Under the pieces are notes generated by a model that was given only the letters and a program-made list of their open reading frames with translations, searched no databases and had not been told where the DNA came from. From contig CAYVES010000004.1 in assembly GCA_964449845.1 (NCBI GenBank), forward strand, positions 1 to 50,068: 50,068 nucleotides of DNA, read 5' to 3'. Made by a program: the position numbers and the translations under genes. Positions within the stretch are counted from its first letter, which is position 1; every line of letters starts with the position of its first letter. Source of the stretch: an uncultured Dehalococcoidia bacterium (GTDB taxonomy: Bacteria > Chloroflexota > Dehalococcoidia > SZUA-161). Shown piece by piece: positions 25,245 through 44,504 of this stretch.

Positions 25245-25273
25245 GCCATTGAGAGACTTTGCTCTTCAATGGC
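25245..25273 (+). terminator. Hairpin immediately after the stop codon (weak terminator or processing-site candidate)
   Basis: GCCATTGAGAG-actttg-CTCT(T)CAATGGC. There is no adjacent U-tract; GGTTTTTCC lies 13 nt downstream. Confidence 0.3.
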
Positions 25274-25330
25274 AAACCTATAGCGGTTTTTCCCTTCGCA
25301 ACGAACAGCGATGAGGAAGGAAGACGCAAT

Positions 25331-25729: not shown

Positions 25730-26637
25730 AGGAGATGACCACCGTCCTGGAGCCGAGGCCGCTCCAGAATTTCGTCGAGACCAAGGCGGTAACGGATATA
25801 ACCGACCGCGCCCTGACCTATGCCGCCGCCGGATTCCCCGTCCACTTCAGGGGGACAACGGGAACGGGAAAGACAACCCTGGCCATGCATGTGGCCTCCA
25901 AGATCGGGCGGCCGGTGGTGATGATCCACGGTGATGAGGAGTTCAGCACCTCGGACCTGGTAGGTGGAGAACATGGCTACCACCGCAGGAAGGTTATCGA
26001 CAACTTCATCCACTCGGTGCTCAAAACCGAGGAGGATATGAGCAAGAAATGGATCGATGACCGCCTCACCGTAGCCTGCCGCTATGGATTTACCCTCATC
26101 TACGATGAGTTCACCAGGTCCCGCCCCGAGGCAAACAACGTGCTCCTCTCCGTGCTTCAGGAGAAGATGATGGACCTGCCCTCGTCGAGGGGAGTGGAGG
26201 AGAGCTACCTCAAGGTTCACCCCGATTTCACCGCCCTGTTCACCTCCAATCCCGAGGAGTATGCTGGCGTTTATCGAAGTCAGGATGCCCTCCGTGACCG
26301 CATGGTAACCATTGACCTCGATTTCTTTGATAAGGAAACGGAGATCGCCATCACCGAAGCCAAGTCCGGTATATCCCGGCGTGAGGCGGAGAAGATCGTA
26401 AGCATCGTTCGGGATCTGAGGGAATCGGGGAAATGCGAGTTTGCCCCCACCGTCCGCGGCTGCATCATGATCGCCAGGTCGCTGAAGCTTAAGGGTGTCC
26501 CTGCCAGTGCCAAGAACGGGCTCTTCGCCCAGATGTGCCAGGATATCCTGGCCTCGGAGACGAGCCGGGTGGGCAGCAAGAGCAGTCAAGAGAAAGTCAA
26601 GGAGGCCGTCAGGGAGCTGGTACCCAAGTATTGTTAA
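25717..26637 (+). CDS. gvpN: Gas vesicle AAA+ ATPase GvpN
   Basis: 306 aa from the ATG after GAAAGGAGG. Contains FVETKAVTDITDRALTYAAAGFPVHFRGTTGTGKTTLAMHVA (Walker A) and LIYDEFTRSRPEANNVLLSVLQE (Walker B and sensor region), typical of GvpN. Confidence 0.93.
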   Translation: MAMVEEMTTVLEPRPLQNFVETKAVTDITDRALTYAAAGFPVHFRGTTGTGKTTLAMHVASKIGRPVVMIHGDEEFSTSDLVGGEHGYHRRKVIDNFIHSVLKTEEDMSKKWIDDRLTVACRYGFTLIYDEFTRSRPEANNVLLSVLQEKMMDLPSSRGVEESYLKVHPDFTALFTSNPEEYAGVYRSQDALRDRMVTIDLDFFDKETEIAITEAKSGISRREAEKIVSIVRDLRESGKCEFAPTVRGCIMIARSLKLKGVPASAKNGLFAQMCQDILASETSRVGSKSSQEKVKEAVRELVPKYC

Positions 26638-27942: not shown

Positions 27943-28155
27943 ATGCCAAGCGGGACTGAAGCAGATGCCCTGAAAAGGATCAGTGAGGCTGGAGGGAGGA
28001 TCGATGTGAGAGCACTGGCTCGCAAAATGGGTCGCAACACCTCCTACATGAACACCATCTGCCGTTCTCTGGGGAAAGCCGATTACATCGATTACCTCGC
28101 CTCCGGGATGTGCGTTATCACCGCTATGGGCGAAGAAGCGGTGAAGGGCAGTTAG
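27943..28155 (+). CDS. Small winged-helix-like protein
   Basis: 70 aa: LKRISEAGGRIDVRALARKMGRNTSYMNTICRSLGKADYIDYLASGMCVITAMGEEAV. This resembles a MarR/ArsR-like wHTH core. RBS GGAGGGAG. Confidence 0.5.
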   Translation: MPSGTEADALKRISEAGGRIDVRALARKMGRNTSYMNTICRSLGKADYIDYLASGMCVITAMGEEAVKGS

Positions 28156-28160
28156 GGAAA

Positions 28161-28526
28161 ATGGCAAAGCGAGTGGTTGAATGCGTCTATTGCAAGGGGA
28201 AAGGGAAACGCAGCTATCTTGAAAAAGGGGTCGGGGTTGCTCTTCGCGGAGAACCGACTTATGAGTTCGTGTGCCCGGTGTGTTCTGGCAGGCGAAAGGT
28301 AGAGGTGGAGGAGCCAGCGAGAACTTGCGGCTTCTGCGGGGGGACGGGGCTATCAAAGCAGGGCAGTCTGGCTACCTGCCCTGTGTGCAAGGGTAAGGGT
28401 ATGGTCACGGTAATAGAGCCGGTCAGTCAGTGTCCTGCTTGCCGCGGACGGGGAAGGAAGCCCGGGAGCCCCCTTTACTGTATTAGATGTAAAGGCACCG
28501 GTTTCATAACCACAGTCAGGGTATGA
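28161..28526 (+). CDS. DnaJ-type zinc-finger protein (about five CxxCxGxG-type units, one degenerate), no J domain
   Basis: 121 aa from the internal ATG. Units: CVYCKGKGK, CPVCSGRRK, CGFCGGTGL, CPVCKGKGM, CPACRGRGR and CIRCKGTGF. Confidence 0.8.
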   Translation: MAKRVVECVYCKGKGKRSYLEKGVGVALRGEPTYEFVCPVCSGRRKVEVEEPARTCGFCGGTGLSKQGSLATCPVCKGKGMVTVIEPVSQCPACRGRGRKPGSPLYCIRCKGTGFITTVRV

Positions 28527-28551: not shown

Positions 28552-29565
28552 GTGAGCAACTATATCTACGGCGTGATTCAAACCAAGAAGGGGAAGAACT
28601 TCGGCCCCATCGGGATCGGCGGTGGGGATGAAGTTTATACCATCCTCTACCTGGACCTGGCAGCGGTGGTAAGCGATTCATTACCCGCTGCGCTCACTAC
28701 TCTCCCCAAGGAGGAGGTAGTGCGCTACCTCTTTGCTCACCAAGCCGTCATTGAGAAGGTGATGAAAGAGCATACTATTATTCCCCTCAAGTTCGGGACC
28801 ACTGTCGGCAGCGCTGAAGAGGTGAAAGAGATTTTAGAGAAGGCCTATCCTAAGTTCAAAGATGCCCTCGAAGCTATGGCGGGCAAGGTGGAGTTCGATG
28901 TGGTTGTTACCTGGAATAAGGACTCTGTGTTCAAGGACATCTCGCAGGAGGAGGAAATCATAAGGTTCAAGCAAAGCCTCGGCCCCCAGCCCTCGGCAGA
29001 AGATAAGGTGAAGCTGGGGCGAATGGTCGAAGACTTTCTAGGCAAGAGGAAAGAGACGCTTGCCCCAGAGATAACCGCTGCCTTAGCCGAAGTCGCTGAG
29101 GATTTCTGCCCCCACGATACCCTGGACGCCACCATGATTATTAACACCGCATTTTTGATCCGAAAAGACAAGCAGGAGGCCTTTGACCAGAAGCTTGACG
29201 AGATAGACTGCAAATATGATGGCGGCTTGAATTTCAGGCGGGTGGGGCCCCTACCACCCTATAGCTTCAGCACCGTTGAGGTCAAGAAGGCTGAGTTTGG
29301 AGAGATTGGAAGGGCAAGAAAGATACTGGGCTTGAGCCAGGAGGCTACGCAGTCCCAGATTAAGGAGGCTTACTGGAATCTGTCCTCGGAGTATCATCCC
29401 GACAAGCACCCGGGTGATGTGGCAATCCGAAAGAGGTTTGAGGATGTTTCCTGGGCCTATGAGCTTCTCACTGAATACTGCGGAGGAGAGAGGTTCTCTT
29501 TTCGAGAAAAGGATGCCAGGGCCTTTGTTAAGGTAGACCTGGTCGGAATCGGAAGAAGAGGGTAG
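28552..29565 (+). CDS. GvpF/GvpL-family protein fused to a C-terminal J domain (HPD motif present)
   Basis: N-terminal NYIYGVIQTKKGKNFGPIGIGGGDEVYTILYLDLAAVVSD...IPLKFGT is GvpF/L. C-terminal ARKILGLSQEATQSQIKEAYWNLSSEYHPDKHPGDVAIRKRFEDVSWAYELL is a J domain. GTG start. Confidence 0.88.
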   Translation: MSNYIYGVIQTKKGKNFGPIGIGGGDEVYTILYLDLAAVVSDSLPAALTTLPKEEVVRYLFAHQAVIEKVMKEHTIIPLKFGTTVGSAEEVKEILEKAYPKFKDALEAMAGKVEFDVVVTWNKDSVFKDISQEEEIIRFKQSLGPQPSAEDKVKLGRMVEDFLGKRKETLAPEITAALAEVAEDFCPHDTLDATMIINTAFLIRKDKQEAFDQKLDEIDCKYDGGLNFRRVGPLPPYSFSTVEVKKAEFGEIGRARKILGLSQEATQSQIKEAYWNLSSEYHPDKHPGDVAIRKRFEDVSWAYELLTEYCGGERFSFREKDARAFVKVDLVGIGRRG

Positions 29566-29570: not shown

Positions 29571-30323
29571 GTGGCTGAGGAAGGTAAATACCTCTACTGC
29601 ATTATCGCAAACAACGAAGGAAGAAACTTCGGTCCACTTGGCATCGGCGGGAGAGGTGATCCGGTTACCACCATCTCCTACAATGACCTCAGTGGGGTCA
29701 TCAGCGACGCCCCGATAAAGGAGTATGCCACCACCAGGGCGAATACCATCGCTCATGAGAAAGCTATCGAGAAAGTGATGAGCGAGGGGAATGCCGTCCT
29801 CCCGGTGAGATTCGGCACTGTGGCCGATAGCGCTCAGGAAGTGCGGGACATTCTGCGCAAGAGAGACCGGGAATTCAAAGACCTGCTCCGCGATATGGAC
29901 AACAAGGTCGAACTGGGGGTGAAGGCGCTCTGGCTTGATATGGACGCTATCTTTAACGAGATCATAGAGGAAAGTGGCGACATCAGAGTGTTGAGAAACA
30001 GGGCTGCCCGCAAGCCAACTCGAGATAGCATGATTCGGGTGGGGGAGCTGGTCAAGGAGGCCTTGGAGGAGAAGAAGGAAAGGGAGGCAGCCTCAATACT
30101 TCAGCCCCTGAACAAGATCGCCCCCGATTCCAAGGTCAATAAGCCCTTCGGCGATAGAATGTTCCTCAATGCCGCCTTCCTGGTTGACAAAGGCTGGGGA
30201 AAACAATTCGACAATGAAATCGAAACCCTGACGATGAAGTATGCCCAGAGGGCGAAGATCACCTATGTTGGGCCTGCCCCGCCCTTCAACTTCGTCAACA
30301 TAGTAATCCACTGGGAAAGATAA
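29571..30323 (+). CDS. gvpF: Gas vesicle protein GvpF/GvpL family
   Basis: 250 aa: KYLYCIIANNEGRNFGPLGIGGRGDPVTTISYNDLSGVISD...VLPVRFGTV...FNFVNI. GTG start, 5 nt after the previous stop. Confidence 0.88.
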   Translation: MAEEGKYLYCIIANNEGRNFGPLGIGGRGDPVTTISYNDLSGVISDAPIKEYATTRANTIAHEKAIEKVMSEGNAVLPVRFGTVADSAQEVRDILRKRDREFKDLLRDMDNKVELGVKALWLDMDAIFNEIIEESGDIRVLRNRAARKPTRDSMIRVGELVKEALEEKKEREAASILQPLNKIAPDSKVNKPFGDRMFLNAAFLVDKGWGKQFDNEIETLTMKYAQRAKITYVGPAPPFNFVNIVIHWER

Positions 30324-30324
30324 G

Positions 30325-30561
30325 ATGCCCATTCTAACAACCTACCTAATCTTCAAGGGTCTTCGAGGCATTGCCGGGAAGATTCGCGATATGGCTGAGG
30401 AGGAATACTACGGGGAGGACAGGATAAAGCAGCAGCTTCTGGAACTCCAGATGAGGTTGGAGATGGATGAGCTAACCGAGGAGGAGTATCTGAAAGCGGA
30501 AGCTGCCCTGATGGGAAGGTTGGAGGAAGGTCGCCAACGCGGCGTTCAAGGAGCAGTATGA
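30325..30561 (+). CDS. gvpG: Gas vesicle protein GvpG
   Basis: 78 aa: GIAGKIRDMAEEEYYGEDRIKQQLLELQMRLEMDELTEEEYLKAEAALMGRLEE, the characteristic GvpG helix pattern. Confidence 0.88.
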   Translation: MPILTTYLIFKGLRGIAGKIRDMAEEEYYGEDRIKQQLLELQMRLEMDELTEEEYLKAEAALMGRLEEGRQRGVQGAV

Positions 30562-32525
30562 TGGCCGCCTTTCTGGCCAACCCATACCTCAAGCTCATAA
30601 TCTTCGGCGGCAAGGGAGGGAGCGGCAAGACAACCTCGGCTGCGGCTGCTGCCCTCCATTTCCGTAAGCTCGACCCCGAAAAGAGGATACTGGTTATGTC
30701 CACCGACCCCGCCCACTCCCTCGGCGACAGCTTCGACATCGCTATCGGCAACAGGGTTACCCCCATAAAGGAGACCGTCTGGGGGCTGGAAGTAGACTCT
30801 AATGAGCTGTTTGAGGAATACAAAGCCAAGCACGGAGACGCGATGAAGAAGATAGCCGACCGGGGGACCTATTTTGACCAGGATGATATCGAGGACTTCT
30901 TCACCAAGACCCTCCCTGGTTTGGATGAGGTTATGGCTGTCATTCGCATCGCCGACCTGCTTAAAGCCGGGGAATATGACCTGATTATTCTGGATACCGC
31001 CCCCACCGGGCACACCCTGGTCCTCCTTTCCCTGCCTGAGGAGATGGAGAAATGGATTCATCTCATGGATATGCTCATGCAGAAACATCGCTATATGATG
31101 AGAAGGCTGGTCGGCAGATACAAAAGGGACGAGTGTGACGAGTTCATCGACAGCCAGCAAAAGGATATCAGCAGGGTGAGACAGCTCCTCAGCGATGCCA
31201 CAGCAAGCGAGTTTGTTCCGGTTACCATCCCAGAGCCGATGAGCATCGCCGAAACAGAAAGAGCCGTCAAGGCTTTGAAGGAGCACAACATTGCGGTCAA
31301 CAGCATCATCGTCAACCGGGTTATCGAGGAGCAGCGGGAGTGTTCCTTCTGCTCGGTGAGGTGGGCGGAGAAGGAAAAGTATGTGCGGGAGATTGAGCAG
31401 AAGTTCGCTCATTACAATCTGGTCAAGATGCCCCTCTTCCCCTACCAGATCCGGGGCGAGAGCTTGACCGAGTATGCCCAGGTACTCTTCGGGGAGAGAG
31501 AATATGCCCCTCCCCCCAGGGCGGAGGTCTTGCCCCAAGCCCCTCCCCTGCCCAAAGGGGGGTTCTCCGATATTCTGGAGAAGGAGCTTAGCTTCCTCAT
31601 CTTCGGGGGCAAGGGAGGGGTGGGCAAGACCTCAATTGCCGCCGCCAGCGCCCTCCATTTAGCCCGACATAAGCCGGATAGGAAGGTCCTCGCCTTCTCC
31701 ACCGACTCCGCCCATGCCCTCTCCGACAGCTTCGAGCAGCGTATTGGCAACCAAATCACCCCGATTTCGGGTATCGATAATCTCTACGCCCTGGAGATTG
31801 ATGGCACCCAGATGCTGGAGGACTTCAAGCAGGAGTATCGAGATGACATAGATGAAGCCTTTCAGAGGTTTCTCGGCACCCACATGGACATGAAGTTTGA
31901 CCGGGAGGTTCTTAAAGAGTTCTTGGCTGTCTCTCCCCCGGGCCTTGATGAGCTCATGTCTTTGCAAGAGATTACGGGTCTCATGAAGGAAGGAGACTAC
32001 AGCCTCTTTGTCCTCGACTCAGCAGCCTCGGGGCACCTGATTCGTTTTCTGGAACTCCCCCATCTGATGAGGGAGTGGCTGAAGAGCGTCTTCAGGCTGC
32101 TCATCAAGTATAGGGGGATGGTGAAGCTGAACAGGGCTACGGAGCGCCTTCTGAGCCTATCCCGGGATTTGAGAAAGATATTGGAGGTTCTCTCCGATCC
32201 CCGAGGAACGGAGTTTGTGATGATCACCATCCCTGAGGAGATGGGGGTGGCGGAGATGGAGGACCTGTCAGAATCTTTAGCCAACCTTAGAATCCCCTGC
32301 TCTCATGTAGTCATTAACATGATAATCCCTCCCACCGACTGTGGTTTCTGTGCTGCCAAGAGAAAAGAGCAGCAGGGCTATATCCAGGAAATCGAGGCAA
32401 AACTGCCTCATCACACCATCGTTCCCATACCTTTACTCCCCCATGATATCAGGGGGGTAGAGCACTTGAGCGAACTTGCCGAGATTATGTACGGGAAGGC
32501 GATGGTGAGCGCTAAGAGATCTTAG
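30558..32525 (+). CDS. Tandem (pseudo-dimeric) ArsA/Get3/TRC40-family ATPase
   Basis: 655 aa. Two P-loops (GGKGGSGKTT, GGKGGVGKTS), two STD(P/S)AH(S/A)L motifs and two switch motifs (LDTAPTGHTL, LDSAASGHLI). Each half carries a CxxC followed by a Get3-like helix (CSFCSVRWAEKEKYVREIE, CGFCAAKRKEQQGYIQEIE). The first half has a Met-rich segment, MEKWIHLMDMLMQKHRYMMRRL. ATGA overlap with the gvpG stop. Confidence 0.88.
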   Translation: MMAAFLANPYLKLIIFGGKGGSGKTTSAAAAALHFRKLDPEKRILVMSTDPAHSLGDSFDIAIGNRVTPIKETVWGLEVDSNELFEEYKAKHGDAMKKIADRGTYFDQDDIEDFFTKTLPGLDEVMAVIRIADLLKAGEYDLIILDTAPTGHTLVLLSLPEEMEKWIHLMDMLMQKHRYMMRRLVGRYKRDECDEFIDSQQKDISRVRQLLSDATASEFVPVTIPEPMSIAETERAVKALKEHNIAVNSIIVNRVIEEQRECSFCSVRWAEKEKYVREIEQKFAHYNLVKMPLFPYQIRGESLTEYAQVLFGEREYAPPPRAEVLPQAPPLPKGGFSDILEKELSFLIFGGKGGVGKTSIAAASALHLARHKPDRKVLAFSTDSAHALSDSFEQRIGNQITPISGIDNLYALEIDGTQMLEDFKQEYRDDIDEAFQRFLGTHMDMKFDREVLKEFLAVSPPGLDELMSLQEITGLMKEGDYSLFVLDSAASGHLIRFLELPHLMREWLKSVFRLLIKYRGMVKLNRATERLLSLSRDLRKILEVLSDPRGTEFVMITIPEEMGVAEMEDLSESLANLRIPCSHVVINMIIPPTDCGFCAAKRKEQQGYIQEIEAKLPHHTIVPIPLLPHDIRGVEHLSELAEIMYGKAMVSAKRS

Positions 32526-32551: not shown

Positions 32552-32926
32552 ATGGCGCTAACGGCGGAAAAGGACTCAGGCGGAACCCTGGCTGATGTCA
32601 TCGACCGGGTTCTGGACAAAGGGCTGGTAATTAACGCCGACATCACCGTGTCTCTGGCTGGGGTGGAGCTATTGGGCATTAAGATAAGGGCAGCCCTGGC
32701 TTCTTTTGAGACGGCAGCCAAGTATGGCCTGGAGTTTCCCTCGGGGACAAATTATGAGACCGCTGCCTGGCAGGAGGCTACAGTTGCCAAAGAGGAATGT
32801 CCCCAGTGTGAGAAGAGGGTGCACCTGGATGAACTCCTCAACGAGGGGTGCCCGTGGTGCGGCTGGGTCAGCGCCAAGGCCAAGGCAATCCGCGCCAAGG
32901 CAACTCCAGAGATGGAAGCCCGCTAA
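32552..32926 (+). CDS. gvpJ: GvpA/GvpJ-family protein with C-terminal zinc ribbon
   Basis: TLADVIDRVLDKGLVINADITVSLAGVELLGIKIRAALASFETAAKYG is the GvpA/J core. CPQCEKRVHLDELLNEGCPWCGW follows. Confidence 0.85.
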   Translation: MALTAEKDSGGTLADVIDRVLDKGLVINADITVSLAGVELLGIKIRAALASFETAAKYGLEFPSGTNYETAAWQEATVAKEECPQCEKRVHLDELLNEGCPWCGWVSAKAKAIRAKATPEMEAR

Positions 32927-34138: not shown

Positions 34139-34813
34139 ATGGCTGAGAAGAAGGAACGGGAAGACAAGATAAGGGAGCTTGAGAAAAAGATCGAGAGGCT
34201 GGAGGAACAACTGGAAAGGCGCAGGCGAGGTGGGGCGGCCGGCAGCGTGCTCCGTGGACTGGGCGATGTTATACCCGGGCTGGGCAGGATGCTCGAGGGG
34301 CTGGAGGATTCGGAGGCTTTCCAGGAAAGGCTGGACGCCATCAACAAGGAGGTTGATAAGAGGCTCAGGGAAACACCGCTTGAGAGGGTGGAAGGAGGAG
34401 GTAGTGATATCGGGATTGCCAAAGGAAGAATACCTAGAAGGGGCTCTATCCCTAATGTGGCGAAAGGTTTCTCAATAAGGAGCTTGGCCCCGGAGAAACC
34501 CGCCTTTGAAGTGAAGGGAGAGAAGCCCCGGCCCAAAAGGCAGAGAGCGGCAGAACCCCGGCCTAGCATAGAGAGAGAGGTCCTGGTGGACGTCTTCGAA
34601 GAGGATAATCACCTGAAGATAATCGCCGAGATCCCGGGAGTGCAAGAAGGGGACATATTGGTCGAGTCTAAGGGAAATGCCGTGCTTATATCCGTTGATA
34701 CCCCTCAGCGCAAGTATCACAAAGAGGTGGCATTGCCCTGCCCGGTTAAGGGGGGACCCAAGACATCTTACAAAAACGGCATCCTGGAAATCGAACTGGA
34801 GAAAGAGGGCTGA
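34139..34813 (+). CDS. Small heat-shock (alpha-crystallin domain) protein with N-terminal coiled coil
   Basis: 224 aa. VLVDVFEEDNHLKIIAEIPGVQEGDILVESKGNAVLISVDTPQRKYHKEVALPCPVKGGPKTSYKNGILEIELEKE is a typical Hsp20 ACD. Confidence 0.8.
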   Translation: MAEKKEREDKIRELEKKIERLEEQLERRRRGGAAGSVLRGLGDVIPGLGRMLEGLEDSEAFQERLDAINKEVDKRLRETPLERVEGGGSDIGIAKGRIPRRGSIPNVAKGFSIRSLAPEKPAFEVKGEKPRPKRQRAAEPRPSIEREVLVDVFEEDNHLKIIAEIPGVQEGDILVESKGNAVLISVDTPQRKYHKEVALPCPVKGGPKTSYKNGILEIELEKEG

Positions 34814-34815
34814 GC

Positions 34816-35142
34816 ATGCCACTTGATATCGATGAGGGCAATCTGAAGCATGGTGTGTTGGGACTGGTCATTGCGCTGGTGGAGATAATCAGGGATACCC
34901 TCAGGATCGAAGCCTTCCGGAGAATGGACGGCGGAAGCCTAGCAGATGAGGAATGTGAGCGGCTGGGAGAAGCACTGCTCGACCTGGATATGGCTATCGA
35001 GGAGATAAAAGAGGAGCAGGGCATCACCGAGGCAGTTCAGCAGGTGAGGGATGGCCTGGATGACATCGCGAGGGAAGTGGTTGACAGAATGGCAAACCCG
35101 GTGAGATGGGAGGAGGAAGCCGAAAGGCAAGGGGTGTGCTAG
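34816..35142 (+). CDS. gvpK: Gas vesicle protein GvpK
   Basis: 108 aa: GVLGLVIALVEIIRDTLRIEAFRRMDGGSLADEECERLGEALLDLDMAIEEI, the characteristic GvpK block. Confidence 0.9.
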   Translation: MPLDIDEGNLKHGVLGLVIALVEIIRDTLRIEAFRRMDGGSLADEECERLGEALLDLDMAIEEIKEEQGITEAVQQVRDGLDDIAREVVDRMANPVRWEEEAERQGVC

Positions 35143-36219
35143 ATGGAAAAGGATCTGAGAGCAAGAAAAGCAATAGAGCAGCTGGTGAGGCAAGAGGTAC
35201 AGAGAATAGCCTCTGAAACCAAGGACCTGTTGAGGGAGATGGTGAGAGCCACCCTACTGCCCGAGCTCAGGGCAGCTATTCAAGATTCTATCTCCGAGGT
35301 GGTGCAGGAGGCGTTGAGTGAGGAGATACTACCAGTCCGTGAAGCCGATATATTTGAGGAAGTTTCAGGGGTTGAAGCTGCTTTCCCGGAAGAGGAAGTA
35401 GGGGAGATGCCGGATGCCGAGGGAGAGCCGGCCTTGGAGGAGGCCAGGGGCACCAAAAATGGGAGCGGCAGGTATGCATATTGCGTCGCCGATTCCGGGG
35501 AAATGGTCAACCTGGGACAGATAGGAATTGAAAACAGTGAAGTCTACACTATTCCCTACAACGGCTTGTGCGCTGTCGTCCATAACTGCTCCACAGAGCC
35601 CTATAAGTCAGAGGATGAGGAAGTGGTCAAGGGCTGGGTGCAGATCCACCAGAAGGTCCTCGATGTGGCTATGGAAAGGTTTGCCACCGTGCTTCCCCTC
35701 GGCTTCGACACGATAATAAAAAGCGAAGATGAAGTCGAGCCCGATCAGGTGGTGAAGGACTGGCTTAAGGATGATTTCGAGAATCTCAGGGAGAAGATGG
35801 ACCGCGTCAGGGGAAATCAGGAGTTCGGCATCCAGGTATTCTATGATCCCAAGGTGATGGGGGAAGTGATTGCCCGGGAGAGCGAGGAGATTCAGAAACT
35901 GCAAGTGGAGATGGCGTCTCAGAAGCCGGGGATGGCCTATATGTATAAGCAGAAGGTGGAGAAGGCGGTGAAAGAGGAAATGGAGAGGAGGGCAGAACAG
36001 AGCTTTAAGGATCTTTACCAGGCAATCAGAAATCAGGTTGATGACATCAAGGTGGAGAAGGTCAAAAGAGACAGGGATAAGACGATGCTTATGAATCTAT
36101 CCTGCCTGGTATTAAAGGAGAAGGTGGAGGACCTGGGCAATGTACTGGAGGGGATTGACAACATGGATGGCTTCTCAGTCCGCTTCACCGGGCCCTGGGC
36201 TTCTCATAGCTTTGTCTAG
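35143..36219 (+). CDS. gvpL: Gas vesicle protein GvpL/GvpF family with an acidic N-terminal extension
   Basis: 358 aa. GRYAYCVADSGEMVNLGQIGIENSEVYTIPYNGLCAVVHN...VLPLGFDTII...FTGPWA. The ATG directly abuts the gvpK stop. Confidence 0.85.
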   Translation: MEKDLRARKAIEQLVRQEVQRIASETKDLLREMVRATLLPELRAAIQDSISEVVQEALSEEILPVREADIFEEVSGVEAAFPEEEVGEMPDAEGEPALEEARGTKNGSGRYAYCVADSGEMVNLGQIGIENSEVYTIPYNGLCAVVHNCSTEPYKSEDEEVVKGWVQIHQKVLDVAMERFATVLPLGFDTIIKSEDEVEPDQVVKDWLKDDFENLREKMDRVRGNQEFGIQVFYDPKVMGEVIARESEEIQKLQVEMASQKPGMAYMYKQKVEKAVKEEMERRAEQSFKDLYQAIRNQVDDIKVEKVKRDRDKTMLMNLSCLVLKEKVEDLGNVLEGIDNMDGFSVRFTGPWASHSFV

Positions 36220-37019: not shown

Positions 37020-38132
37020 GTGGGAATGCAACCTACGGCGGCAACGGAATGTGGTGTAACCGATCTCTTAGAGAGGATTCTAGACAAGGGGCTGGTAATC
37101 CATGCCGACCTCATAGTCTCCCTGGCAGGGGTTCCTCTTGTCGGGGTTACTCTAAAGGCAGCCATAGCCGGGATGGAGACAATGCTGAAGTATGGCATGT
37201 TGACCGATTGGGATGAAAAGACCCGCGACTGGGCTCGAACGGAGCGGGAGGAATCTCGAAAAGCGAGCGGGGTCTTGAAAGACGGTGAAGAGGTTCTGAT
37301 CAGGATGTTCGGCTCCCACTGGTACAGCCGGGGCATCTACCGCAACTGGAGGCCGGGGCATCTCTACGTCACCGATAGGAGGCTTCTACTGTGGAGACCC
37401 TATCCCGGCGAGGTATTAACGGAGGTTCACTACGAGCTAATAAAAGGAATGGCTGTGGAGAGAAGGATAAATGTCGCCAAGAAGGAAACGGATTACCTTT
37501 ATATATTGCTCAAGGATGGCGAGGTGGTTCAACTCCATCCCACCGATGCTTCGGTGGTAAGAGAGGCTATTGAAAACAGGATGCAAACGCTGGGACTGCA
37601 ACTGGAGAGTTACCCAGCTATCCCGCCCGTTGATGAGGGGGCAGCCAGGTTCTTGACCCCTGGCGAGCAAGTTACCCACTGCGGCAGGATGTGGCACCTC
37701 GTGACCCAGCCCTCCCCGGGCGGAATCACCAGCGAGAAGTGGAAGCCGGGACACCTGTATCTAACCAACGAGAGGCTGTACTGGTATCACGACTTCGACG
37801 GCAAGGTGGACTGGGAAGCCCCCCGTGACAGCCTGGTTCATGCCACTGCTCAGTTAAAGAATCTCGGGGGTATGCTGAAGGAGAAGCAGGTCCTCAGTGT
37901 GCTGCACAAGACCGGGTCAGGTAACAGGGTAGCATGCTTCTCTGGCGTGCCGGTGGAGATGAAGGACTGGGAGGATGCCCTAGTAGATGTCATCAGGCAG
38001 CGCAGCGAACCCATGCCTGAGGACTGGGAACAGTGCCCCCAGTGCGGGGAGAAAGCGCCCCGAGAGAGGCTGGTAAAAGATGGCTGCCCGGTGTGCGGCT
38101 GGGTAAGCCCCAGGCTGACGCGAAGAGTCTAG
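37020..38132 (+). CDS. GvpA/GvpJ-family domain fused to two PH/GRAM-like domains and a C-terminal zinc ribbon
   Basis: 370 aa. VTDLLERILDKGLVIHADLIVSLAGVPLVGVTLKAAIAGMETMLKYGM is the GvpA-family core. WRPGHLYVTDRRLLLW and WKPGHLYLTNERLYWY mark two PH/GRAM-like modules. CPQCGEKAPRERLVKDGCPVCGW closes it. The start may be the ATG at 37026. Confidence 0.83.
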   Translation: MGMQPTAATECGVTDLLERILDKGLVIHADLIVSLAGVPLVGVTLKAAIAGMETMLKYGMLTDWDEKTRDWARTEREESRKASGVLKDGEEVLIRMFGSHWYSRGIYRNWRPGHLYVTDRRLLLWRPYPGEVLTEVHYELIKGMAVERRINVAKKETDYLYILLKDGEVVQLHPTDASVVREAIENRMQTLGLQLESYPAIPPVDEGAARFLTPGEQVTHCGRMWHLVTQPSPGGITSEKWKPGHLYLTNERLYWYHDFDGKVDWEAPRDSLVHATAQLKNLGGMLKEKQVLSVLHKTGSGNRVACFSGVPVEMKDWEDALVDVIRQRSEPMPEDWEQCPQCGEKAPRERLVKDGCPVCGWVSPRLTRRV

Positions 38133-38142: not shown

Positions 38143-38421
38143 GTGAGCAAAATGTCTCTGACGACGGTTCAGGTAGTAGACCGGGCTAAGAAGCAGCTAA
38201 GCGAGCTCATAGAGAGGAAGCCATCAGGTGTGACTGCGGTTCACAAGGATGATGGGGGGTGGCATGTCTCGCTGGAGATGCTGGAGAAGAAGTCTATCCC
38301 CGATGGCATGGATTTGCTTGCCGAGTATGAGGTCGTGCTTGATGATGACGGGAATATACTGAAGTTTGACCGGGGTGACCTGCGCACCCGCAGCGAGGCG
38401 ACAAAACATGAAGAGGAATAG
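38143..38421 (+). CDS. gvpO: Gas vesicle protein GvpO
   Basis: 92 aa: VVDRAKKQLSELIERKPSGVTAVHKDDGGWHVSLEMLEKKSIPDGMDLLAEYEVVLDDDGNILKFDRGDLRTR matches the GvpO pattern (W.V.vE..E...iP...D.la.YEv.lD..G.l..f.R). RBS AAAGGAGG. Confidence 0.8.
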   Translation: MSKMSLTTVQVVDRAKKQLSELIERKPSGVTAVHKDDGGWHVSLEMLEKKSIPDGMDLLAEYEVVLDDDGNILKFDRGDLRTRSEATKHEEE

Positions 38422-38487: not shown

Positions 38488-38727
38488 TTGACAGAGATGG
38501 CAGAAGAGAAGACGACAGCAGTGACGGGTCCGTTTCACTGCCCTATGTGTCTAGCCACCACCTCGGGGAGGCATGCCTTTTGCCCTGAGTGTGGCGAGCC
38601 CCTGGATATGCAGTGTCCCAACTGCGGACTTACCTGGCGATTCTATATCAAGCATACCTTTTGCCCTTCCTGCGGACAAAGGGTTCCGGCAAAAGCTGGA
38701 CTGACCACAGCTAAAGGCTGGGGCTAG
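38488..38727 (+). CDS. Small double zinc-ribbon protein
   Basis: 79 aa. CPMC...CPEC...CPNC...CPSC gives four CxxC pairs. The start is TTG at 38488 or ATG at 38497. Confidence 0.58.
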   Translation: MTEMAEEKTTAVTGPFHCPMCLATTSGRHAFCPECGEPLDMQCPNCGLTWRFYIKHTFCPSCGQRVPAKAGLTTAKGWG

Positions 38728-38757: not shown

Positions 38758-40503
38758 ATGGCTAGAGTCATAGGGATTGATTTGGGTACTACCAACTCGG
38801 TAGCTGCCTTTATAGAGAATCGCAAGCCAAAGGTCATCCCCAATGCCGAGGGTGGTCGGCTGACCCCTTCTGTAGTGGCGTTGACCGCAGATGGGAGGCG
38901 GCTGGTGGGGCAACTGGCAAAGAGGCAGGCCGTAGCCAACCCCGAGAAAACCGTTGTCTCCATGAAGAGGCGAATGGGCTCTGACTTCAGGGTGAGGCTT
39001 GGCCGAAAGGAGTACACGCCTCAAGAGGTCTCAAGCCTTATCTTGGGTAAGATCAAAGCCGATGTCGAAAGCTACCTGGTGGAGAGGGTGGAAAAGGCGG
39101 TGATCACCGTTCCTGCCTATTTCAATGACTCTCAGCGTCAAGCCACCAAAGATGCTGGGACCATCGCTGGGTTGGATGTACTCAGGATTATTAACGAACC
39201 CACGGCCGCTGCCTTGGCCTATGGGTTGGATAAGCAGGACGCCCATAATATCCTGGTCTGGGACCTTGGCGGCGGCACGTTCGATGTCTCCATCCTGGAG
39301 CTGGGCAGGGGAATGTTTGAGGTCAAGGCGGTAAGTGGCAACACCTGGCTGGGGGGGGATGACTGGGACCAGCGTATCGTGGATTATCTGGCTGGCGAGT
39401 TCCAGAGACAGCACGGCATCGACTTGCGAGAAGACAGGATAGCCCTGCAGCGGCTGAGGGAGGCCGTGGAGAAAGCCAAGATCGAGCTTTCAAACAGCCA
39501 GGTTGCCTCCATCAAACTGACGTTTATCCTCAGTAACAACCATGATGCCGAACATCTGGATATGACACTGACCAGGGAAAGGTTCGAGGAGCTAACAGAG
39601 GATTTGCTTCAGAAGATGATTGGGCCCACCAAGCAAGCTTTGGCCGATGCCAAACTCGAGCCTGAAGATATCGATAGGGTAGTTCTGGTAGGCGGAGCTA
39701 CCAGGATGACGGCGGTGCAGCAGCTATGCCGAGCGCTCTTGCGTAAGGAGCCTTACAAGGACATCGATCCCGATGAGGTGGTGGCTATGGGCGCCGCCAT
39801 TCAAGCCGGGATGCTAAGCGGTGAACTGGAAAAGGTAACATTGCTCGATGTTACCCCCCTCTCTCTGGGCATTGAGACCAGGGGCGGGATTTTTGCCAGG
39901 ATTATTGAAAGGAATGCCAAAATTCCTACCTCCACAAGCCAGGTATTTTCCACGGCTTTCGACAACCAGCCTGAGGTGGATATTCATGTGCTGCAGGGAG
40001 AGAGGGAGATGGCTTGTTACAACATGAGCCTGGGCAGATTTCAGCTCACCGATATCCCCCTTGCTCCCCGAGGAGTGCCCCGCGTCGAGGTCGTCTTTAG
40101 TATCGACGTTAACGGCATTCTCCAGGTGTCTGCCACAGACCTATATACCGAAAATGAAGCCAGATTAAGGATTCAGTCCTCCAGGCTATCACCTGAGGAC
40201 ATCGGACGGATGATCGAAGAAGCTAAGGTCTATGCTGAGGAGGACAAGAGGCGGCGCGAAGAGGTAGAGATAGGTATTAGAGCCGACAACCTCATCTATG
40301 CTGCTGAAAAGATGGTGGAGCAGACAGGGGATAGATTGGATGACACCCAGCTTGCGGAAACAGAGGCAAAGGTATTAGCGGTGAAGTCCGCTCTAGCCAG
40401 TGGAGATACTGAGGAGATCAGGTTAAGAACTGAAGACCTACAAGAAGTGGTCCGGGAGTTATACACGGAGAAGGAGGAGCTTACCAGTGCAAGGGCGACT
40501 TGA
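38758..40503 (+). CDS. Hsp70 (DnaK-family) chaperone, compact 581-aa form
   Basis: [72 protein letters not shown] and a full beta-sandwich SBD ([13 protein letters not shown]...[19 protein letters not shown]). The helical lid is short. Confidence 0.95.
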
Positions 40504-40804: not shown

Positions 40805-41500
40805 ATGGAGAATAGACGTATCAGGGGATTGCGATTAGAGCTTGGTCTGTCTCAGGAGAGGTTTGCTCGGCTCGTTGGCGTCTCACTGCAAACGGTGCGA
40901 CGGTGGGAGGAAGGCTTAACCAGACCTCTGCCTGTCTTGAGTCTCAAGCTGGAGGAGCTACAAAGAAATTCCGGAGGTGTTGGAATGGGTGAGGAGGAAA
41001 AGAAGAAAGTGGAAGGAACTGTGGATATTGGTTTCGGTGGCCTGTTCAAGGGACTCGGCAGCCTGTTTGACCTCGTCTCCAGGATGGCTGAGGAGGGGAA
41101 AGATGAATATACCCGCACCGGGGAGATTACGGGCCTGGGCGACAAGGCTAAGGGAGTATATGGCTTTAGCGTAAAGATGGGGCTGGGAGGAAAGCCGACT
41201 ATAGAACAGTTCGGCAATATCAAGGCAACCGAGAGGGGGCCGGTGGTGGCGGAGGTCAGGGAGCCTATAGTTGATGTCTTCGATGAGGGGGAGAGATTGG
41301 TAGTGATCGCTGAACTTCCTGGTGTGGACGAGGACGACATCCACCTTGAGGTGAAAGATGACATTATCGATCTGGCTGCGGAAGCAAAGGACAGGAAGTA
41401 CAGTAAGGAGATTCTACTTCCCTCGGCAGTGGATGCCGATTCTATGCAATCTACCTACAAGAACGGGATTCTGGAGATAACGTTCAAGAAGAAGCAATAA
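40805..41500 (+). CDS. XRE-type HTH domain fused to an alpha-crystallin (Hsp20) domain
   Basis: N-terminal IRGLRLELGLSQERFARLVGVSLQTVRRWEEG is an HTH_3 pattern. C-terminal PIVDVFDEGERLVVIAELPGVDEDDIHLEVKDDIIDLAAEAKDRKYSKEILLPSAVDADSMQSTYKNGILEITFKK is an ACD. Confidence 0.83.
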   Translation: MENRRIRGLRLELGLSQERFARLVGVSLQTVRRWEEGLTRPLPVLSLKLEELQRNSGGVGMGEEEKKKVEGTVDIGFGGLFKGLGSLFDLVSRMAEEGKDEYTRTGEITGLGDKAKGVYGFSVKMGLGGKPTIEQFGNIKATERGPVVAEVREPIVDVFDEGERLVVIAELPGVDEDDIHLEVKDDIIDLAAEAKDRKYSKEILLPSAVDADSMQSTYKNGILEITFKKKQ

Positions 41501-41682: not shown

Positions 41683-43827
41683 ATGGCGAAGGTGGAAACT
41701 AACGCCGTAACCCTTAGGGTTTCGGAGGCGCTGGCTAAGGACGTGGGTCGAGGAATAGCCAGGATCGACCCTAAAGATATGGTGGAGACAGGCGCTGAGG
41801 TTGGAGATATCGTTCAGATTGTGGGTAAGAGACCCACTGTTGCCAGACTTATGCCCACCTACATGGAGGACCGGGGCAAGGACAGCATTCAAATCGATGG
41901 CATTACGCGAGAGAACGCCCAGATTGGACTGGGTGAGAAGGTACAAATTCAAAAGGTTGAACACAAGACCGCCAATGCCATAGTCCTCGCCCCAATAGCC
42001 CCATCATCTGCCTTCGCTCGCGAAAAGGATACCGGCTACATCGGGAGGCTGCTTGAGGGAATGGCTGCCACCTCTGGAGACAAGGTAAGGGTCACCCTTT
42101 TTGGCACTCGCTATCAGGAATTCTCTGTGGTGGATACCAACCCCAAGGGAGTCGTTGTTGTCCATCCCACCACCCGGGTAAAGATGAAAGGTGAAAGGGT
42201 TACCGAGAGAGAAGGGGTTGGAGTTACCTACGAGGACATCGGTGGATTGCACAAGGAGATTCAGAAGATAAGAGAGATGATCGAGCTTCCCCTGAAATAC
42301 CCTGAGGTGTTTGACAGGCTGGGGATTGAAGCCCCCAAGGGGGTATTGCTCCATGGCCCTCCGGGATGCGGCAAGACTCTGATCGCCCGAGCGGTAGCCA
42401 ATGAGACCGACGCTGGCTTTTTCCATGTAAGTGGTCCCGAGGTCATCCATAAGTTTTATGGAGAGAGTGAAGCACACCTGCGGGCTTTGTTTGAGAAGGC
42501 AGGTGAACAGGCGCCGGCCATAATCTTTTTGGATGAGATTGACGCTATAGCCTCCAAAAGGGAGGAAATCAGGGGCGACCAGCAGGTGGAAAGAAGGGTT
42601 GTTGCCCAGCTTCTGGCGTTGATGGATGGCCTGAGATCAAGGGGGCAGGTGATCGTCATCGGGGCAACCAATATACCCAATGTGCTTGACCCGGCACTGC
42701 GGAGACCGGGCAGGTTTGATCGGGAGATTTCAATAAGCATCCCCGACAAGAAGGGAAGGCTGGAGATACTCCACATCCATACTAGAGGAATGCCTTTGGC
42801 TTCGGATGTCGACCTGGAAAAGCTGGCTGAAATCACCCATGGCTTTGTTGGTGCCGACCTGGAGGCGCTCTCTAGAGAGGCGGCGATGATAACCCTGAGG
42901 AAGATCATGCCCAAGATCGAGTTTGAGACCGACTATATTCCCTATGAACTGCTCCTGGAACTGGAAGTTACCATGGATGACTTCATGGAGGCATTAAAGG
43001 AGGTGGAGCCTTCAGCCATCAGGGAGGTTTTCACTGAGATTCCCGATGTAAAGTGGAGCGATGTCGGTGGTCTTGAGGAGGCGAAACGAGTGCTCAGGGA
43101 GACCATCGAGTGGCCCCTCAGCTATCCCGAGGTATTCGGCAAAGCCAATACCAGTCCTCCCAAGGGGATACTGCTTACCGGAGCCCCAGGGACGGGTAAG
43201 ACGCTGCTGGCTAAGGCTGTGGCTAACGAGAGTGGAGTGAACTTCATCTCGGTAAAGGGCCCGGCCTTGCTCACAAAATGGGTGGGGGAGTCGGAGAAAG
43301 GGATCAGGGAGGTGTTCAAGAAAGCCAAACAGGCCAGCCCCTGCATCATGTTCTTCGATGAGATAGACGCCATCGCCCCCACCAGAGGGGTTAGTGCTGA
43401 TTCCCACGTCACTGAGCGAGTGATCAGCCAGTTCCTCACTGAACTCGATGGAATAGAGGAGCTTAAGGGGGTGATGGTTCTGGCTGCTACCAACAGGCCG
43501 GATATTATCGACCCAGCTCTGCTTAGAGCTGGCAGATTCGACTTCCAGTTGGAGCTGCCAATGCCTGATGAGGAGACAAGGCTGGAGATATTCAAGGTTC
43601 ATACCAGGGGCAAACCCCTGGCTGACGATGTTGACCTCAAGTCCCTCGCCAAGGCAACTCAAGGCGTGGCAGGCTCTGATATAGAGGCTATCTCAAGGAG
43701 AGCTTCGATGCTGGCGATAAGGGAATTCATAAACCGGGAGGAAATGGACCTCGACAAACTCAAGATCGAGGCCCGGCATTTCAGGGAGGCACTTGAGACA
43801 ACAAGGATGGCCAAAGACCAGCGATGA
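41683..43827 (+). CDS. Cdc48/VCP-like double-ring AAA+ ATPase (N domain + D1 + D2)
   Basis: 714 aa. N-terminal [23 protein letters not shown]...GDIVQIVG is a Cdc48-N pattern. Two Walker A motifs ([22 protein letters not shown]), two Walker B motifs ([20 protein letters not shown]) and two second-region-of-homology blocks ([26 protein letters not shown]). Confidence 0.93.
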
Positions 43828-44504
43828 GAAAACTCCTTTATGTCCCTATTATCCACACGGAGTCTGAACTGGGAAGCGTAGCTTCCGCTATCGAGAGCAG
43901 AAGCGCCGCTCTGGTTGGAGAGGAGAAATGGGCCAGACACAAGGAAGTAGTGGCAAAGTTCTGGGAGAACCTGGCTCACCACTTCGATTCTCTTGATGCT
44001 GCCAATCTCAAGATATATCAAGATGGTCTCCTCGCAGATGGCGAACTGGGCAGGAGGGTCGTCGAGGAGGCAGCAAAACGCGGCAGCAGGAATCACCAAA
44101 TCATCCTCAACCTTGTGGAGAAGGGCGCTGAGCTTATGAAGACCGAGGATACAGATCTCATCAAGGAGGAGTATAAACATATTATCCAGCTTGCTCAGTC
44201 CAAATCGGTTGTTGGGAAAAGCGTTGCCTTCACCAAGTATAAACTGCGCAAAGGTTCGCTGCTGAAGGAAAGGGATAAATTTGTAGCTGAAACGATCGAT
44301 CAAACGCTGAAGGAAGAGGAGACTGGCGTTCTCTTTATGGGGAGTCATCATGATGTTCTCCCTTATCTCCCGGAAGACATTGTAGTAGAGCAGGTCAAGG
44401 ACAGGGAAAGGATTAACCTTTACTTCAAGTATCTTATTTCAAGGATAAGTAGGAGAAGATTTGAGCAGTTGGCAGAATACGTTGCCTCCCTAACACAAAC
44501 CTAA
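43824..44504 (+). CDS. Hypothetical protein, start overlapping the stop of the Cdc48-like ATPase
   Basis: 226 aa with an ATGA overlap to the upstream stop. No recognisable domain. Confidence 0.6.

What the first reader, a model, noticed from the sequence alone, without database searches (positions are those of the whole stretch)
38758..40503. Compact Hsp70 paralog embedded in the gvp cluster without GrpE or a canonical DnaJ
**Seen.**
- The ORF is a complete Hsp70 of only 581 aa, with NBD motifs, a linker, a beta-sandwich SBD and a truncated helical lid.
- It lies 30 nt downstream of a four-CxxC zinc-ribbon gene and follows gvpO.
- No grpE and no full-length dnaJ is present anywhere in the 50 kb.
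- The only J domain is the one fused to GvpF/L.

**Established.** Housekeeping dnaK normally sits in a grpE-dnaK-dnaJ or hrcA context and is about 610-640 aa long.

**Inference.** This is an accessory, client-dedicated Hsp70 rather than the housekeeping copy.
Basis: partly seen in the sequence, partly recalled or inferred. Interest (0 to 1): 0.7.

Follow-up and report, generated by a model that had tools for sequence, protein, structure and literature searches.

The report
Gas-vesicle-cluster Hsp70 with J-domain partner
This gene is a working Hsp70 chaperone from a previously unremarked branch of the DnaK family that always sits inside gas-vesicle gene clusters, next to a gas-vesicle assembly protein carrying its own Hsp70-recruiting J domain, which suggests some bacteria use a dedicated chaperone to build these gas-filled floats.

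Summary
The ORF (38758-40503, 581 aa) is a complete Hsp70, and all the context claims hold: gvpO and a four-CxxC zinc ribbon lie upstream with a 30-nt gap, there is no grpE, hrcA or full dnaJ in the 50 kb, and the only J domain is fused to a GvpF/L protein. One detail is wrong. The helical lid is intact; what is missing is the disordered C-terminal tail with its conserved acidic motif. The 24-aa NBD 'deletion' is the ordinary Gram-positive DnaK state.

The protein belongs to a sharply delimited family of 171 sequences (100/100 bootstrap). Every one of the 15 distinct clusters I could inspect is a gvp cluster without grpE or hrcA, across at least four phyla, whereas 75 of 75 neighbouring DnaKs sit with hrcA/grpE/dnaJ. 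Catalytic, linker and J-contact residues are intact. GvpF/L-J fusions (HPD in 118 of 120) co-occur with the Hsp70 in 8 of 9 clusters where both regions are visible. One Acidobacteriota cluster has the J fusion but no Hsp70.

A second, housekeeping dnaK in the same genome could not be checked. The searchable literature never mentions an Hsp70 in gvp clusters. I rate it a new variant of a known kind: a client-dedicated Hsp70/J pair, analogous to HscA/HscB.

The parts
38758..40503 (+). gvp-cluster Hsp70 (581 aa): complete NBD, VTLLD linker, SBD-beta and full helical lid; short 12-aa tail without the DnaK terminal acidic motif
38488..38727 (+). double zinc-ribbon protein (79 aa, four CxxC), 30 nt upstream of the Hsp70; conserved at this position in related clusters
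38143..38421 (+). gvpO
   Evidence: PF05800, E 5.9e-22
37020..38132 (+). GvpJ/M-like protein (370 aa): GvpA-family N-terminus plus a long C-terminal part with weak PH/GRAM-like and Zn-ribbon hits; lies upstream of the Hsp70 in most family loci
28552..29565 (+). GvpF/L with a C-terminal J domain (HPD at residue 282); proposed co-chaperone that recruits the Hsp70
28110..28526 (+). stand-alone DnaJ-type cysteine-rich zinc-finger protein (five CxxCxGxG plus one CxxC), directly upstream of the J fusion
25259..25729 (+). two further small ORFs with CxxCxGxG motifs (25259-25525 and 25538-25729), read from the translations only
   Evidence: sequence; three such copies in L092 and L095
40759..40787 (+). 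perfect 12/12 sigma-70-type promoter match with extended -10 TG, in the 300-nt gap after the Hsp70; suggests the Hsp70 ends one operon and Hsp20-CDC48 starts another
40805..41500 (+). HTH_3 + Hsp20 (GvpH-like) fusion protein
41683..43827 (+). CDC48-type double AAA+ ATPase (714 aa)
   Evidence: conserved in related clusters
43824..44504 (+). conserved 226-aa protein of unknown function that follows CDC48
30558..32525 (+). tandem ArsA/Get3-like ATPase (655 aa)
   Evidence: the association with gvp genes is published (PMC2963123)
23235..23441 (+). gvpA (68 aa), start of the cluster
25612..26637 (+). gvpN-like AAA+ (AAA_5); the true start is probably downstream of the GTG listed
29571..30561 (+). 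gvpF/L paralogue (29571-30323) and gvpG (30325-30561)
32552..32926 (+). GvpA/J-family protein (124 aa)
34139..36219 (+). weak Hsp20-like protein (34139-34813), gvpK (34816-35142), and gvpL with a 108-aa N-terminal extension (35143-36219)

Best explanation
The gene encodes an active, J-domain-responsive Hsp70 from a distinct DnaK-derived family that is carried inside one type of gas-vesicle (gvp) gene cluster. The most likely mechanism runs as follows. GvpF/L proteins bind the small, very hydrophobic GvpA-family proteins. In this cluster one GvpF/L carries a C-terminal J domain with an intact HPD motif. That domain docks on the cluster Hsp70, triggers ATP hydrolysis, and so clamps the Hsp70 onto the GvpA/GvpJ/GvpM-type client held by GvpF/L. 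The client stays soluble until it is built into the growing vesicle wall. The stand-alone DnaJ-type zinc-finger proteins probably supply the client-holding function that the cysteine-rich domain provides in a full DnaJ. Nucleotide exchange would come from the host GrpE or be intrinsic, because no exchange factor is encoded in the cluster. Shown: gene, domains, intact functional residues, a distinct family, conserved gvp linkage across phyla, a conserved HPD J fusion that co-occurs with the Hsp70, and loss of the generalist C-terminal tail motif. Inferred: the physical J-Hsp70 partnership, the identity of the client, the source of nucleotide exchange, and the existence of a separate housekeeping DnaK in the same genome.
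For: It is an Hsp70 closest to DnaK. K70, E171, D194, T199, D201, R151, P143, the J-contact residues R167/N170/T173, and the linker are all kept. The 78-sequence family is separated in 100/100 bootstraps with E. coli, M. tuberculosis and Bacillota DnaKs on the other side, and this also holds without the signature columns. The family extends to 171 sequences, with 0/171 carrying the terminal VVDA[DE][FY] motif against 108/125 others. Every family locus inspected is a gvp cluster without grpE or hrcA, while 75/75 non-family loci carry hrcA/grpE/dnaJ. The J domain is on GvpF/L with HPD, and 118/120 fusion homologues keep HPD. Helix II of the fused J domain is far less basic than in 74 housekeeping DnaJs, which fits a private partnership. 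GvpF and GvpL bind GvpM in haloarchaea (PMC6107691). GvpA-type shell protein aggregates and is proteotoxic unless assembly factors chaperone it (PMC12848028). Hsp70 divergence tracks that of GvpK, GvpL, GvpO and CDC48 (Spearman 0.77-0.96).
Against: No second dnaK could be shown in any host genome. The protein is only moderately diverged from housekeeping DnaK (62-64% identity to Bacillota DnaKs). It passes the NCBIfam NF001413 DnaK cutoff, and the Hakubella member is as close to a Bacillota DnaK as to the window protein. The GrpE-loop residues I recalled are mostly conserved, so there is no sign of GrpE independence. One complete-looking cluster (L111, Acidobacteriota) has the J fusion, CDC48 and Hsp20 but no Hsp70, so the Hsp70 is dispensable for this cluster type when a host DnaK can serve. 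The polar arch residue (R375) is not specific, because M. tuberculosis DnaK has K there. The co-divergence could simply reflect host phylogeny. There is no experimental evidence.
Confidence: 0.7

Rival explanations
1. Quality-control or disaggregation module. The Hsp70 works mainly with the adjacent Hsp20-type holdase and the CDC48-type AAA+ unfoldase, in the way sHsp-DnaK-ClpB cooperate, to extract and recycle GvpA-family proteins from aggregates or collapsed vesicles rather than to assemble new vesicles. This overlaps with the main explanation, because the J fusion could still do the targeting.
For: Hsp70, HTH-Hsp20, CDC48 and its 226-aa partner are consecutive in the window and in L003 and L007. 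CDC48 and Hsp20 recur in nearly all related clusters. GvpA aggregation is proteotoxic.
Against: A perfect promoter match separates the Hsp70 from the Hsp20-CDC48 unit. In Hakubella, CDC48 lies at the other end of the cluster. L111 has CDC48 and Hsp20 but no Hsp70. CDC48 has no known Hsp70-docking element comparable to the ClpB M-domain (my own knowledge).
Confidence: 0.17
2. It is simply the organism's housekeeping DnaK, relocated next to gvp genes and serving the whole proteome together with grpE and dnaJ encoded elsewhere.
For: Very high similarity to DnaK and intact functional residues. The rest of the genome is not visible.
Against: The same arrangement recurs in at least four phyla within one well-supported clade. 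The universally conserved C-terminal motif is lost in 171/171 members. Members attributed to diderm phyla (Nitrospirota, Omnitrophica, Deltaproteobacteria, Scalindua) lack the Gram-negative-type NBD insert expected in their native DnaK (the expectation rests on the known Hsp70 indel, my own knowledge). No non-gvp Chloroflexota DnaK appears among the 120 closest relatives of this Dehalococcoidia-type protein.
Confidence: 0.07
3. It is a hitch-hiking stress gene. The gvp island also carries general stress chaperones that are co-regulated with buoyancy but have no specific gas-vesicle client.
For: The cluster contains several generic chaperone types (Hsp20, AAA+, ArsA).
Against: The J domain is physically fused to a dedicated gas-vesicle assembly factor and is conserved. 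The Hsp70 keeps a fixed position after gvpJ/M-gvpO. It shows family-specific sequence signatures.
Confidence: 0.06

Closest known systems
Housekeeping DnaK of the DnaK/DnaJ/GrpE system (Gram-positive type, e.g. Geobacillus kaustophilus DnaK, PDB 2V7Y/4ANI)
   Same: The alignment is collinear from residue 1 at about 60% identity. All catalytic, allosteric, linker, J-contact and substrate-pocket residues are the same, and the short Gram-positive-type NBD region is shared.
   Different: It sits in a gvp operon instead of hrcA-grpE-dnaK-dnaJ. It lacks the disordered tail and the terminal acidic motif. It carries family-specific residues (V221, H/Y492, I537, I/L407 in E. coli numbering). It forms a separate clade.
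HscA/HscB (Hsp70 and J-protein dedicated to Fe-S cluster assembly, encoded in the isc operon)
   Same: The logic is the same: an Hsp70 encoded in the operon of its client pathway, paired with a pathway-specific J protein, with no GrpE in the operon.
   Different: It is not an HscA (TIGR01991 score 561, cutoff 708.55). It is far less diverged from DnaK. The J domain is fused to the client-binding assembly factor itself rather than being a separate adaptor. Whether it can do without GrpE is unknown.
HscC/DjlC-type specialised Hsp70 pairs
   Same: An accessory Hsp70 with its own J partner.
   Different: NF008673 scores 75.5 against a cutoff of 331, so it is not a member.
Known chaperone-like accessories of gvp clusters (GvpH/Hsp20, GvpN AAA+, ArsA homologues; Castillo & Saier 2010)
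   Same: The same kind of cluster. ArsA and Hsp20 in gvp operons are already published.
   Different: That work and the other papers I searched never mention an Hsp70, a J-domain GvpF/L fusion or CDC48 in gvp clusters.
Eukaryotic Hsp70 to Sgt2 to Get3 relay for tail-anchored proteins
   Same: An Hsp70 and an ArsA/Get3-family ATPase are encoded together with very hydrophobic small clients.
   Different: This is only an analogy. No Sgt2/Get4/5-like adaptor was identified and no interaction was tested.

Membership tests
Hsp70 superfamily (PF00012) | Full-length match to the Hsp70 profile with NBD, linker, SBD-beta and lid | tested here: met
   PF00012 E 1.5e-216; aligned to DnaK structures over residues 1-569
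Hsp70 superfamily (PF00012) | Catalytic and allosteric residues (K70, E171, D194, T199, D201, R151, P143; hydrophobic linker + D393) | tested here: met
   All conserved in the window protein and in at least 70 of 71 clade members
DnaK (housekeeping equivalog) | Score above the curated equivalog cutoffs | tested here: inconclusive
   NF001413: 818 bits, above the 648 cutoff. TIGR02350: 794, below 822.55. NF009947 and NF009946 are both below cutoff
DnaK (housekeeping equivalog) | Genomic context with grpE, dnaJ or hrcA | tested here: not met
   None in the 50-kb window or in any gvp-linked locus; present in 75 of 75 non-family loci
DnaK (housekeeping equivalog) | Disordered C-terminal tail ending in the conserved acidic VVDA[DE][FY] motif | tested here: not met
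   0/171 family members against 108/125 other DnaKs; the tail is 12 aa against a median of 43
DnaK (housekeeping equivalog) | Being the sole or main Hsp70 of the genome | not testable with these tools
   The window is the whole contig.
HscA | Score above the TIGR01991 / NF003520 cutoffs | tested here: not met
   561 against 708.55, and 546 against 620
HscC-type chaperone (NF008673) | Score above cutoff | tested here: not met
   75.5 against 331
gvp-cluster Hsp70 family (defined here) | Placement in the clade, and signature residues V221, W/Y232, M346, L352, H/Y492, R/K500, I537, I/L407, L/R313 (E. coli numbering) | tested here: met
   The window protein scores 9 of 9. The distribution is bimodal (family 6-9, others 0-2; M. 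tuberculosis DnaK scores 5). 100/100 bootstraps
gvp-cluster Hsp70 family (defined here) | Location inside a gvp cluster, downstream of gvpK-gvpL-gvpJ/M(-gvpO) | tested here: met
   The window plus 14 other distinct clusters
gvp-cluster Hsp70 family (defined here) | Functional partnership with the GvpF/L J domain | not testable with these tools
   Only co-occurrence (8 of 9 clusters with coverage) and HPD conservation (118/120) could be shown

The most novel reading that the evidence does not exclude
These gvp clusters encode a self-contained, client-dedicated proteostasis pathway for gas-vesicle shell proteins: J-domain GvpF/L plus DnaJ-type zinc-finger holdases, then a private Hsp70, then an ArsA/Get3-like ATPase, with Hsp20 and CDC48 for rescue. 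That would be a bacterial counterpart of the eukaryotic Hsp70-to-Get3 relay, delivering extremely hydrophobic GvpA-family proteins to the gas-water interface instead of a membrane. The Hsp70 and the fused J domain would have co-evolved into an orthogonal pair, as hinted by the de-basified J helix II and the family-specific Hsp70 residues.
Probability: 0.15. Interest if true: 0.85.

Novelty: new variant of a known kind. Interest (0 to 1): 0.62.

Why it matters
How the extremely hydrophobic GvpA-family proteins stay soluble and get inserted into a growing gas vesicle is an open question. It is also a practical bottleneck for using gas vesicles as acoustic reporters, because heterologous expression is proteotoxic (PMC12848028). 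A conserved Hsp70, together with a J domain fused directly to GvpF/L, points to a concrete and testable mechanism: Hsp70-assisted hand-over of shell proteins by GvpF/L. It also offers a ready-made chaperone module that could be co-expressed with gvp clusters. For chaperone biology it adds a third bacterial example of a pathway-dedicated Hsp70/J pair, after HscA/HscB and HscC/DjlC. This one diverged recently enough from DnaK that every database labels it 'DnaK', which also matters for annotation and for dnaK-based phylogenies of MAGs.

Tried and rejected
1. Small size as evidence of specialisation. Rejected: the 24-aa NBD gap is shared with all 73 Gram-positive-type housekeeping DnaKs, and gvp-linked family members range from 540 to about 630 aa.
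2. Truncated lid. Rejected for this protein. It is true only for the distant L104-type members, which end near Eco-540.
3. Arch substitution M404 to R/Q as a specificity change. Downgraded, because M. tuberculosis housekeeping DnaK has K404.
4. A hidden GrpE-like exchange factor among the unknown cluster proteins. None found with the GrpE HMM or hhalign.
5. P0041, an 854-aa 'Hsp70 fusion'. It is a Gram-negative DnaK with an internal duplication, probably an assembly artefact.
6. Finding a second dnaK in the same genome. The genome scan used query-specific patterns and returned only one locus per genome. No tool could list other genes of the same MAG. Matching 'longest_contig' values between hit lists gave three extra Hsp70/J-fusion pairs but no second dnaK.
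7. Literature. Nine searches combined gas vesicle with Hsp70, DnaK, DnaJ, J domain, Cdc48, ArsA or Dehalococcoidia, or used Hakubella and Scalindua rubra. None found a description of an Hsp70 or a J fusion in gvp clusters. The library lacks most subscription journals, so absence is not proof.
8. Co-divergence of the Hsp70 with gvp genes. It is real, but it cannot separate cluster co-inheritance from host phylogeny.
9. My first clade definition (the smallest NJ bipartition containing the verified members) had only 7/100 exact support, because five true members fell just outside it. Redefining the family by signatures gave 100/100.
Full report
**Observation.** The ORF at 38758-40503 (+) is real, starts with ATG and encodes 581 aa. 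It is a full-length Hsp70 (Pfam PF00012, E 1.5e-216). Against NCBIfam it is closest to DnaK: it scores 818 bits on NF001413 (cutoff 648) but 794 on TIGR02350 (cutoff 822.55). It falls clearly below the HscA and HscC-type cutoffs. gvpO (38143-38421) and a 79-aa double zinc ribbon with four CxxC motifs (38488-38727) precede it. The gap to the Hsp70 ATG is exactly 30 nt and contains GAGAGGAAGG.

I built GrpE, HrcA and DnaJ profiles from 75 housekeeping loci and scanned every ORF of 40 aa or more in the window. GrpE and HrcA gave no hit. DnaJ hit only two things: the C-terminal J domain of a GvpF/L protein at 28552-29565 (PF00226, E 7e-15; HPD at residue 282), and a stand-alone DnaJ-type CxxCxGxG zinc-finger protein at 28110-28526, which the finding did not mention. 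Profile-profile comparison found nothing GrpE-like among the conserved unknown proteins of the cluster (probability at most 2.1%).

**What is wrong in the observation.** The lid is not truncated. The best structural relatives are Geobacillus DnaK (2V7Y/4ANI, collinear over 1-510) and M. tuberculosis DnaK. Against E. coli DnaK, residues 79-568 align to 103-598. With it, the protein extends to about Eco-611.

The 57-residue difference from E. coli DnaK has two parts:
- 24 residues come from the NBD segment Eco 76-103, which is also absent from all 73 grpE-linked Gram-positive-type DnaKs in my set.
- The rest is the disordered C-terminal tail. The protein has 12 residues beyond Eco-600, against a median of 43 in housekeeping proteins, and lacks the conserved terminal acidic motif.

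**Surroundings.** The gene is the last in a tightly spaced, same-strand run that starts at gvpA (23235-23441). In order, the run contains:
- GvpN-like AAA+
- small CxxCxGxG proteins
- the GvpF/L-J fusion
- GvpF/L
- GvpG
- a tandem ArsA/Get3-like ATPase
- a 124-aa GvpA/J-family protein
- a weak Hsp20-like protein
- GvpK
- GvpL
- a 370-aa GvpJ/M-like protein
- GvpO
- the zinc ribbon
- the Hsp70

A 300-nt gap follows, with a perfect 12/12 sigma-70-type promoter match (40759-40787). After it come an HTH-Hsp20 fusion, a CDC48-type AAA+ ATPase and a conserved 226-aa protein. The closest genome hit is an uncultured Dehalococcoidia MAG (91% identity), so the window is probably from Dehalococcoidia (Chloroflexota).

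**Relatives and their contexts.** The closest homologues are annotated simply as 'DnaK'. I inspected the contexts of 12 distinct members at 61-91% identity. The named sources were Dehalococcoidia MAGs, Ca. Hakubella thermalkaliphila and another Actinomycetota MAG, a Coprothermobacterota MAG and a Thermodesulfobacteriota MAG; the rest were metagenome contigs. All 12 lie in gvp clusters, usually just after the gvpJ/M-like gene, and none has grpE or hrcA within 10 kb.

Three further clusters came from a metagenome scan seeded with the J fusion: L095, and the distant L104 and L106. In contrast, all 75 other loci returned by the genome scan (55-60% identity, mostly Bacillota) carry hrcA, grpE and dnaJ. 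Members of 597-618 aa are also gvp-linked, so compactness does not define the group.

**Is it a distinct family?** Nine alignment positions separate the group from other DnaKs. The score distribution is bimodal: 6-9 for the family and 0-2 for the others. The signature-defined set of 78 sequences forms a bipartition with 100/100 NJ bootstrap support. E. coli, M. tuberculosis and all Bacillota DnaKs fall on the other side, and the result holds after deleting the nine signature columns.

A profile search extended the family to 171 sequences. None of them (0/171) has the terminal VVDA[DE][FY] motif, against 108/125 non-family DnaKs. New members are attributed to Ca. Scalindua rubra, Deltaproteobacteria, Nitrospirota, Omnitrophica and Edwardsbacteria. 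The S. rubra genome paper reports 11 gas-vesicle genes but no chaperone (PMC5486813).

Two subfamilies exist. One is compact, like the window protein. The other has a ~25-aa NBD insert that looks like a duplication of the IKRxMG segment and is unrelated to the Gram-negative insert. The L104 member ends near Eco-540 and so lacks most of the lid.

Two cautions apply. M. tuberculosis DnaK shares five of the nine signatures and also has a polar arch residue (K404), so only V221, H/Y492, I537 and I/L407 are family-specific. The arch change (R375 here) is therefore not evidence of a new specificity. In addition, identity to Bacillota DnaKs remains high, at 62-68%.

**Function.** All catalytic and allosteric residues, the interdomain linker, the substrate pocket and the J-domain contact residues R167/N170/T173 are conserved. 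The protein should therefore be an ordinary ATP-driven Hsp70 that can be stimulated by a J domain.

The only J domain nearby is on GvpF/L. That fusion is a large family (770 hits), and HPD is kept in 118 of the top 120; the two exceptions are truncated entries. In the 9 clusters where both the J fusion and the downstream region are visible, 8 contain the Hsp70: the window, L003, L004, L007, L089, L095, L104 and L106. The exception is L111, an Acidobacteriota MAG, where the absence was confirmed by tblastn.

So the J fusion is the broader invention. It presumably works with host DnaK where no cluster Hsp70 exists, and the cluster Hsp70 is a later captured, specialised copy. Helix II of the fused J domain is much less basic (mean net charge +1.6, and -1 in the window) than in 74 housekeeping DnaJs (+4 or +5). 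The Hsp70-less L111 fusion keeps +4. This is suggestive of co-adaptation, but it rests on one counter-example.

Published work supports the premises. GvpF and GvpL bind the GvpA-like GvpM (PMC6107691). GvpA-type proteins aggregate and are proteotoxic unless assembly factors chaperone them (PMC12848028).

**What could not be shown.** I could not verify a canonical dnaK elsewhere in the same genome. The window is the entire contig, the single genome-collection scan used query-specific patterns, and no tool lists the other genes of a MAG. The accessory status therefore rests on indirect evidence:
- cross-phylum monophyly with conserved gvp linkage;
- loss of the generalist tail motif;
- no non-gvp Chloroflexota DnaK among the 120 closest relatives;
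- no Gram-negative-type insert in members attributed to diderm phyla, where the expectation rests on the known Hsp70 indel (my own knowledge) and on correct binning.

Independence from GrpE is also not shown, because the GrpE-loop residues I recalled are largely conserved.

**Comparison with the known.** ArsA homologues and Hsp20 in gvp operons are already published (Castillo & Saier 2010). An Hsp70, a J-domain GvpF/L fusion and CDC48 in gvp clusters were not found in nine full-text searches, though the library misses most subscription journals. Functionally the closest precedent is HscA/HscB, an Hsp70/J pair encoded with its client pathway. This protein is not an HscA, and here the J domain is fused to the client-binding assembly factor itself.

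**Verdict.** The finding is real. Its context claims are correct, its structural detail (the lid) is wrong, and its interpretation is well supported short of the same-genome test. I rate it a new variant of a known kind, with moderate to high interest.

Noticed in passing
window 40759-40787 (+): Perfect 12/12 sigma-70 consensus promoter match (TTGACA, 17 nt, TATAAT, with an extended -10 TG) in the 300-nt gap between the Hsp70 and the HTH-Hsp20 gene. It suggests Hsp20-CDC48 is a separately controlled unit.
   Followed up: partly
window 28110-28526, 25259-25525, 25538-25729: Up to three small proteins made almost only of DnaJ-type CxxCxGxG zinc-finger repeats, with no J domain. Together with the J domain on GvpF/L they look like a 'split DnaJ'. 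Three copies are also present in L092 and L095.
   Followed up: partly
window 41683-44504: A CDC48-type double AAA+ ATPase plus an overlapping conserved 226-aa partner recurs in gvp clusters of Dehalococcoidia, Hakubella, Coprothermobacterota, Acidobacteriota, Aerophobetes and others. I found no literature on it.
   Followed up: partly
window 37020-38132: A 370-aa protein with a GvpJ/M-like N-terminus and a long C-terminal part giving weak PH/GRAM/Vps36-like and zinc-ribbon hits. It is conserved just upstream of the Hsp70. In L111 the two parts are separate genes.
   Followed up: no
window 40805-41500: Fusion of an HTH_3 DNA-binding domain to an Hsp20/GvpH-like domain. It could be a regulator that senses the folding state of gas-vesicle proteins.
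   Followed up: no
L111 (Acidobacteriota MAG GCA_040756905.1): A complete-looking gvp cluster with the GvpF/L-J fusion, CDC48 and Hsp20 but no Hsp70. Its J-domain helix II keeps the DnaJ-like +4 charge, unlike the window's -1.
   Followed up: partly
L104 13581-15221; L106 13372-15033: Distant gvp-linked Hsp70s (~51% identical to the window protein) that carry the ~25-aa NBD insert. The L104 copy has lost most of the helical lid, ending near E. coli residue 540.
   Followed up: partly
P0241-P0329 and P0047-P0064 (second subfamily): The ~25-aa NBD insert of the longer subfamily looks like a tandem duplication of the 'IKRxMG' segment. It lies at the same site as the classic Gram-negative Hsp70 insert but is unrelated to it in sequence.
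   Followed up: no
window 23676-25244: Three ORFs after gvpA share repeated motifs such as 'VGRMLDELWGVDEEVA.QWHKVMSSIRT'. They have no Pfam match and could be a GvpC-like repeat protein or duplicated fragments.
   Followed up: no
window 22191-22952 and 46433-49381: OmpR-type response regulators and a PAS histidine kinase flank the cluster on both sides and are candidate regulators. Response-regulator genes also sit beside gvpA in L110-L112.
   Followed up: no
P0041: An 854-aa 'Hsp70' that is a Gram-negative-type DnaK with an exact internal duplication of about 215 aa, probably an assembly artefact.
   Followed up: yes
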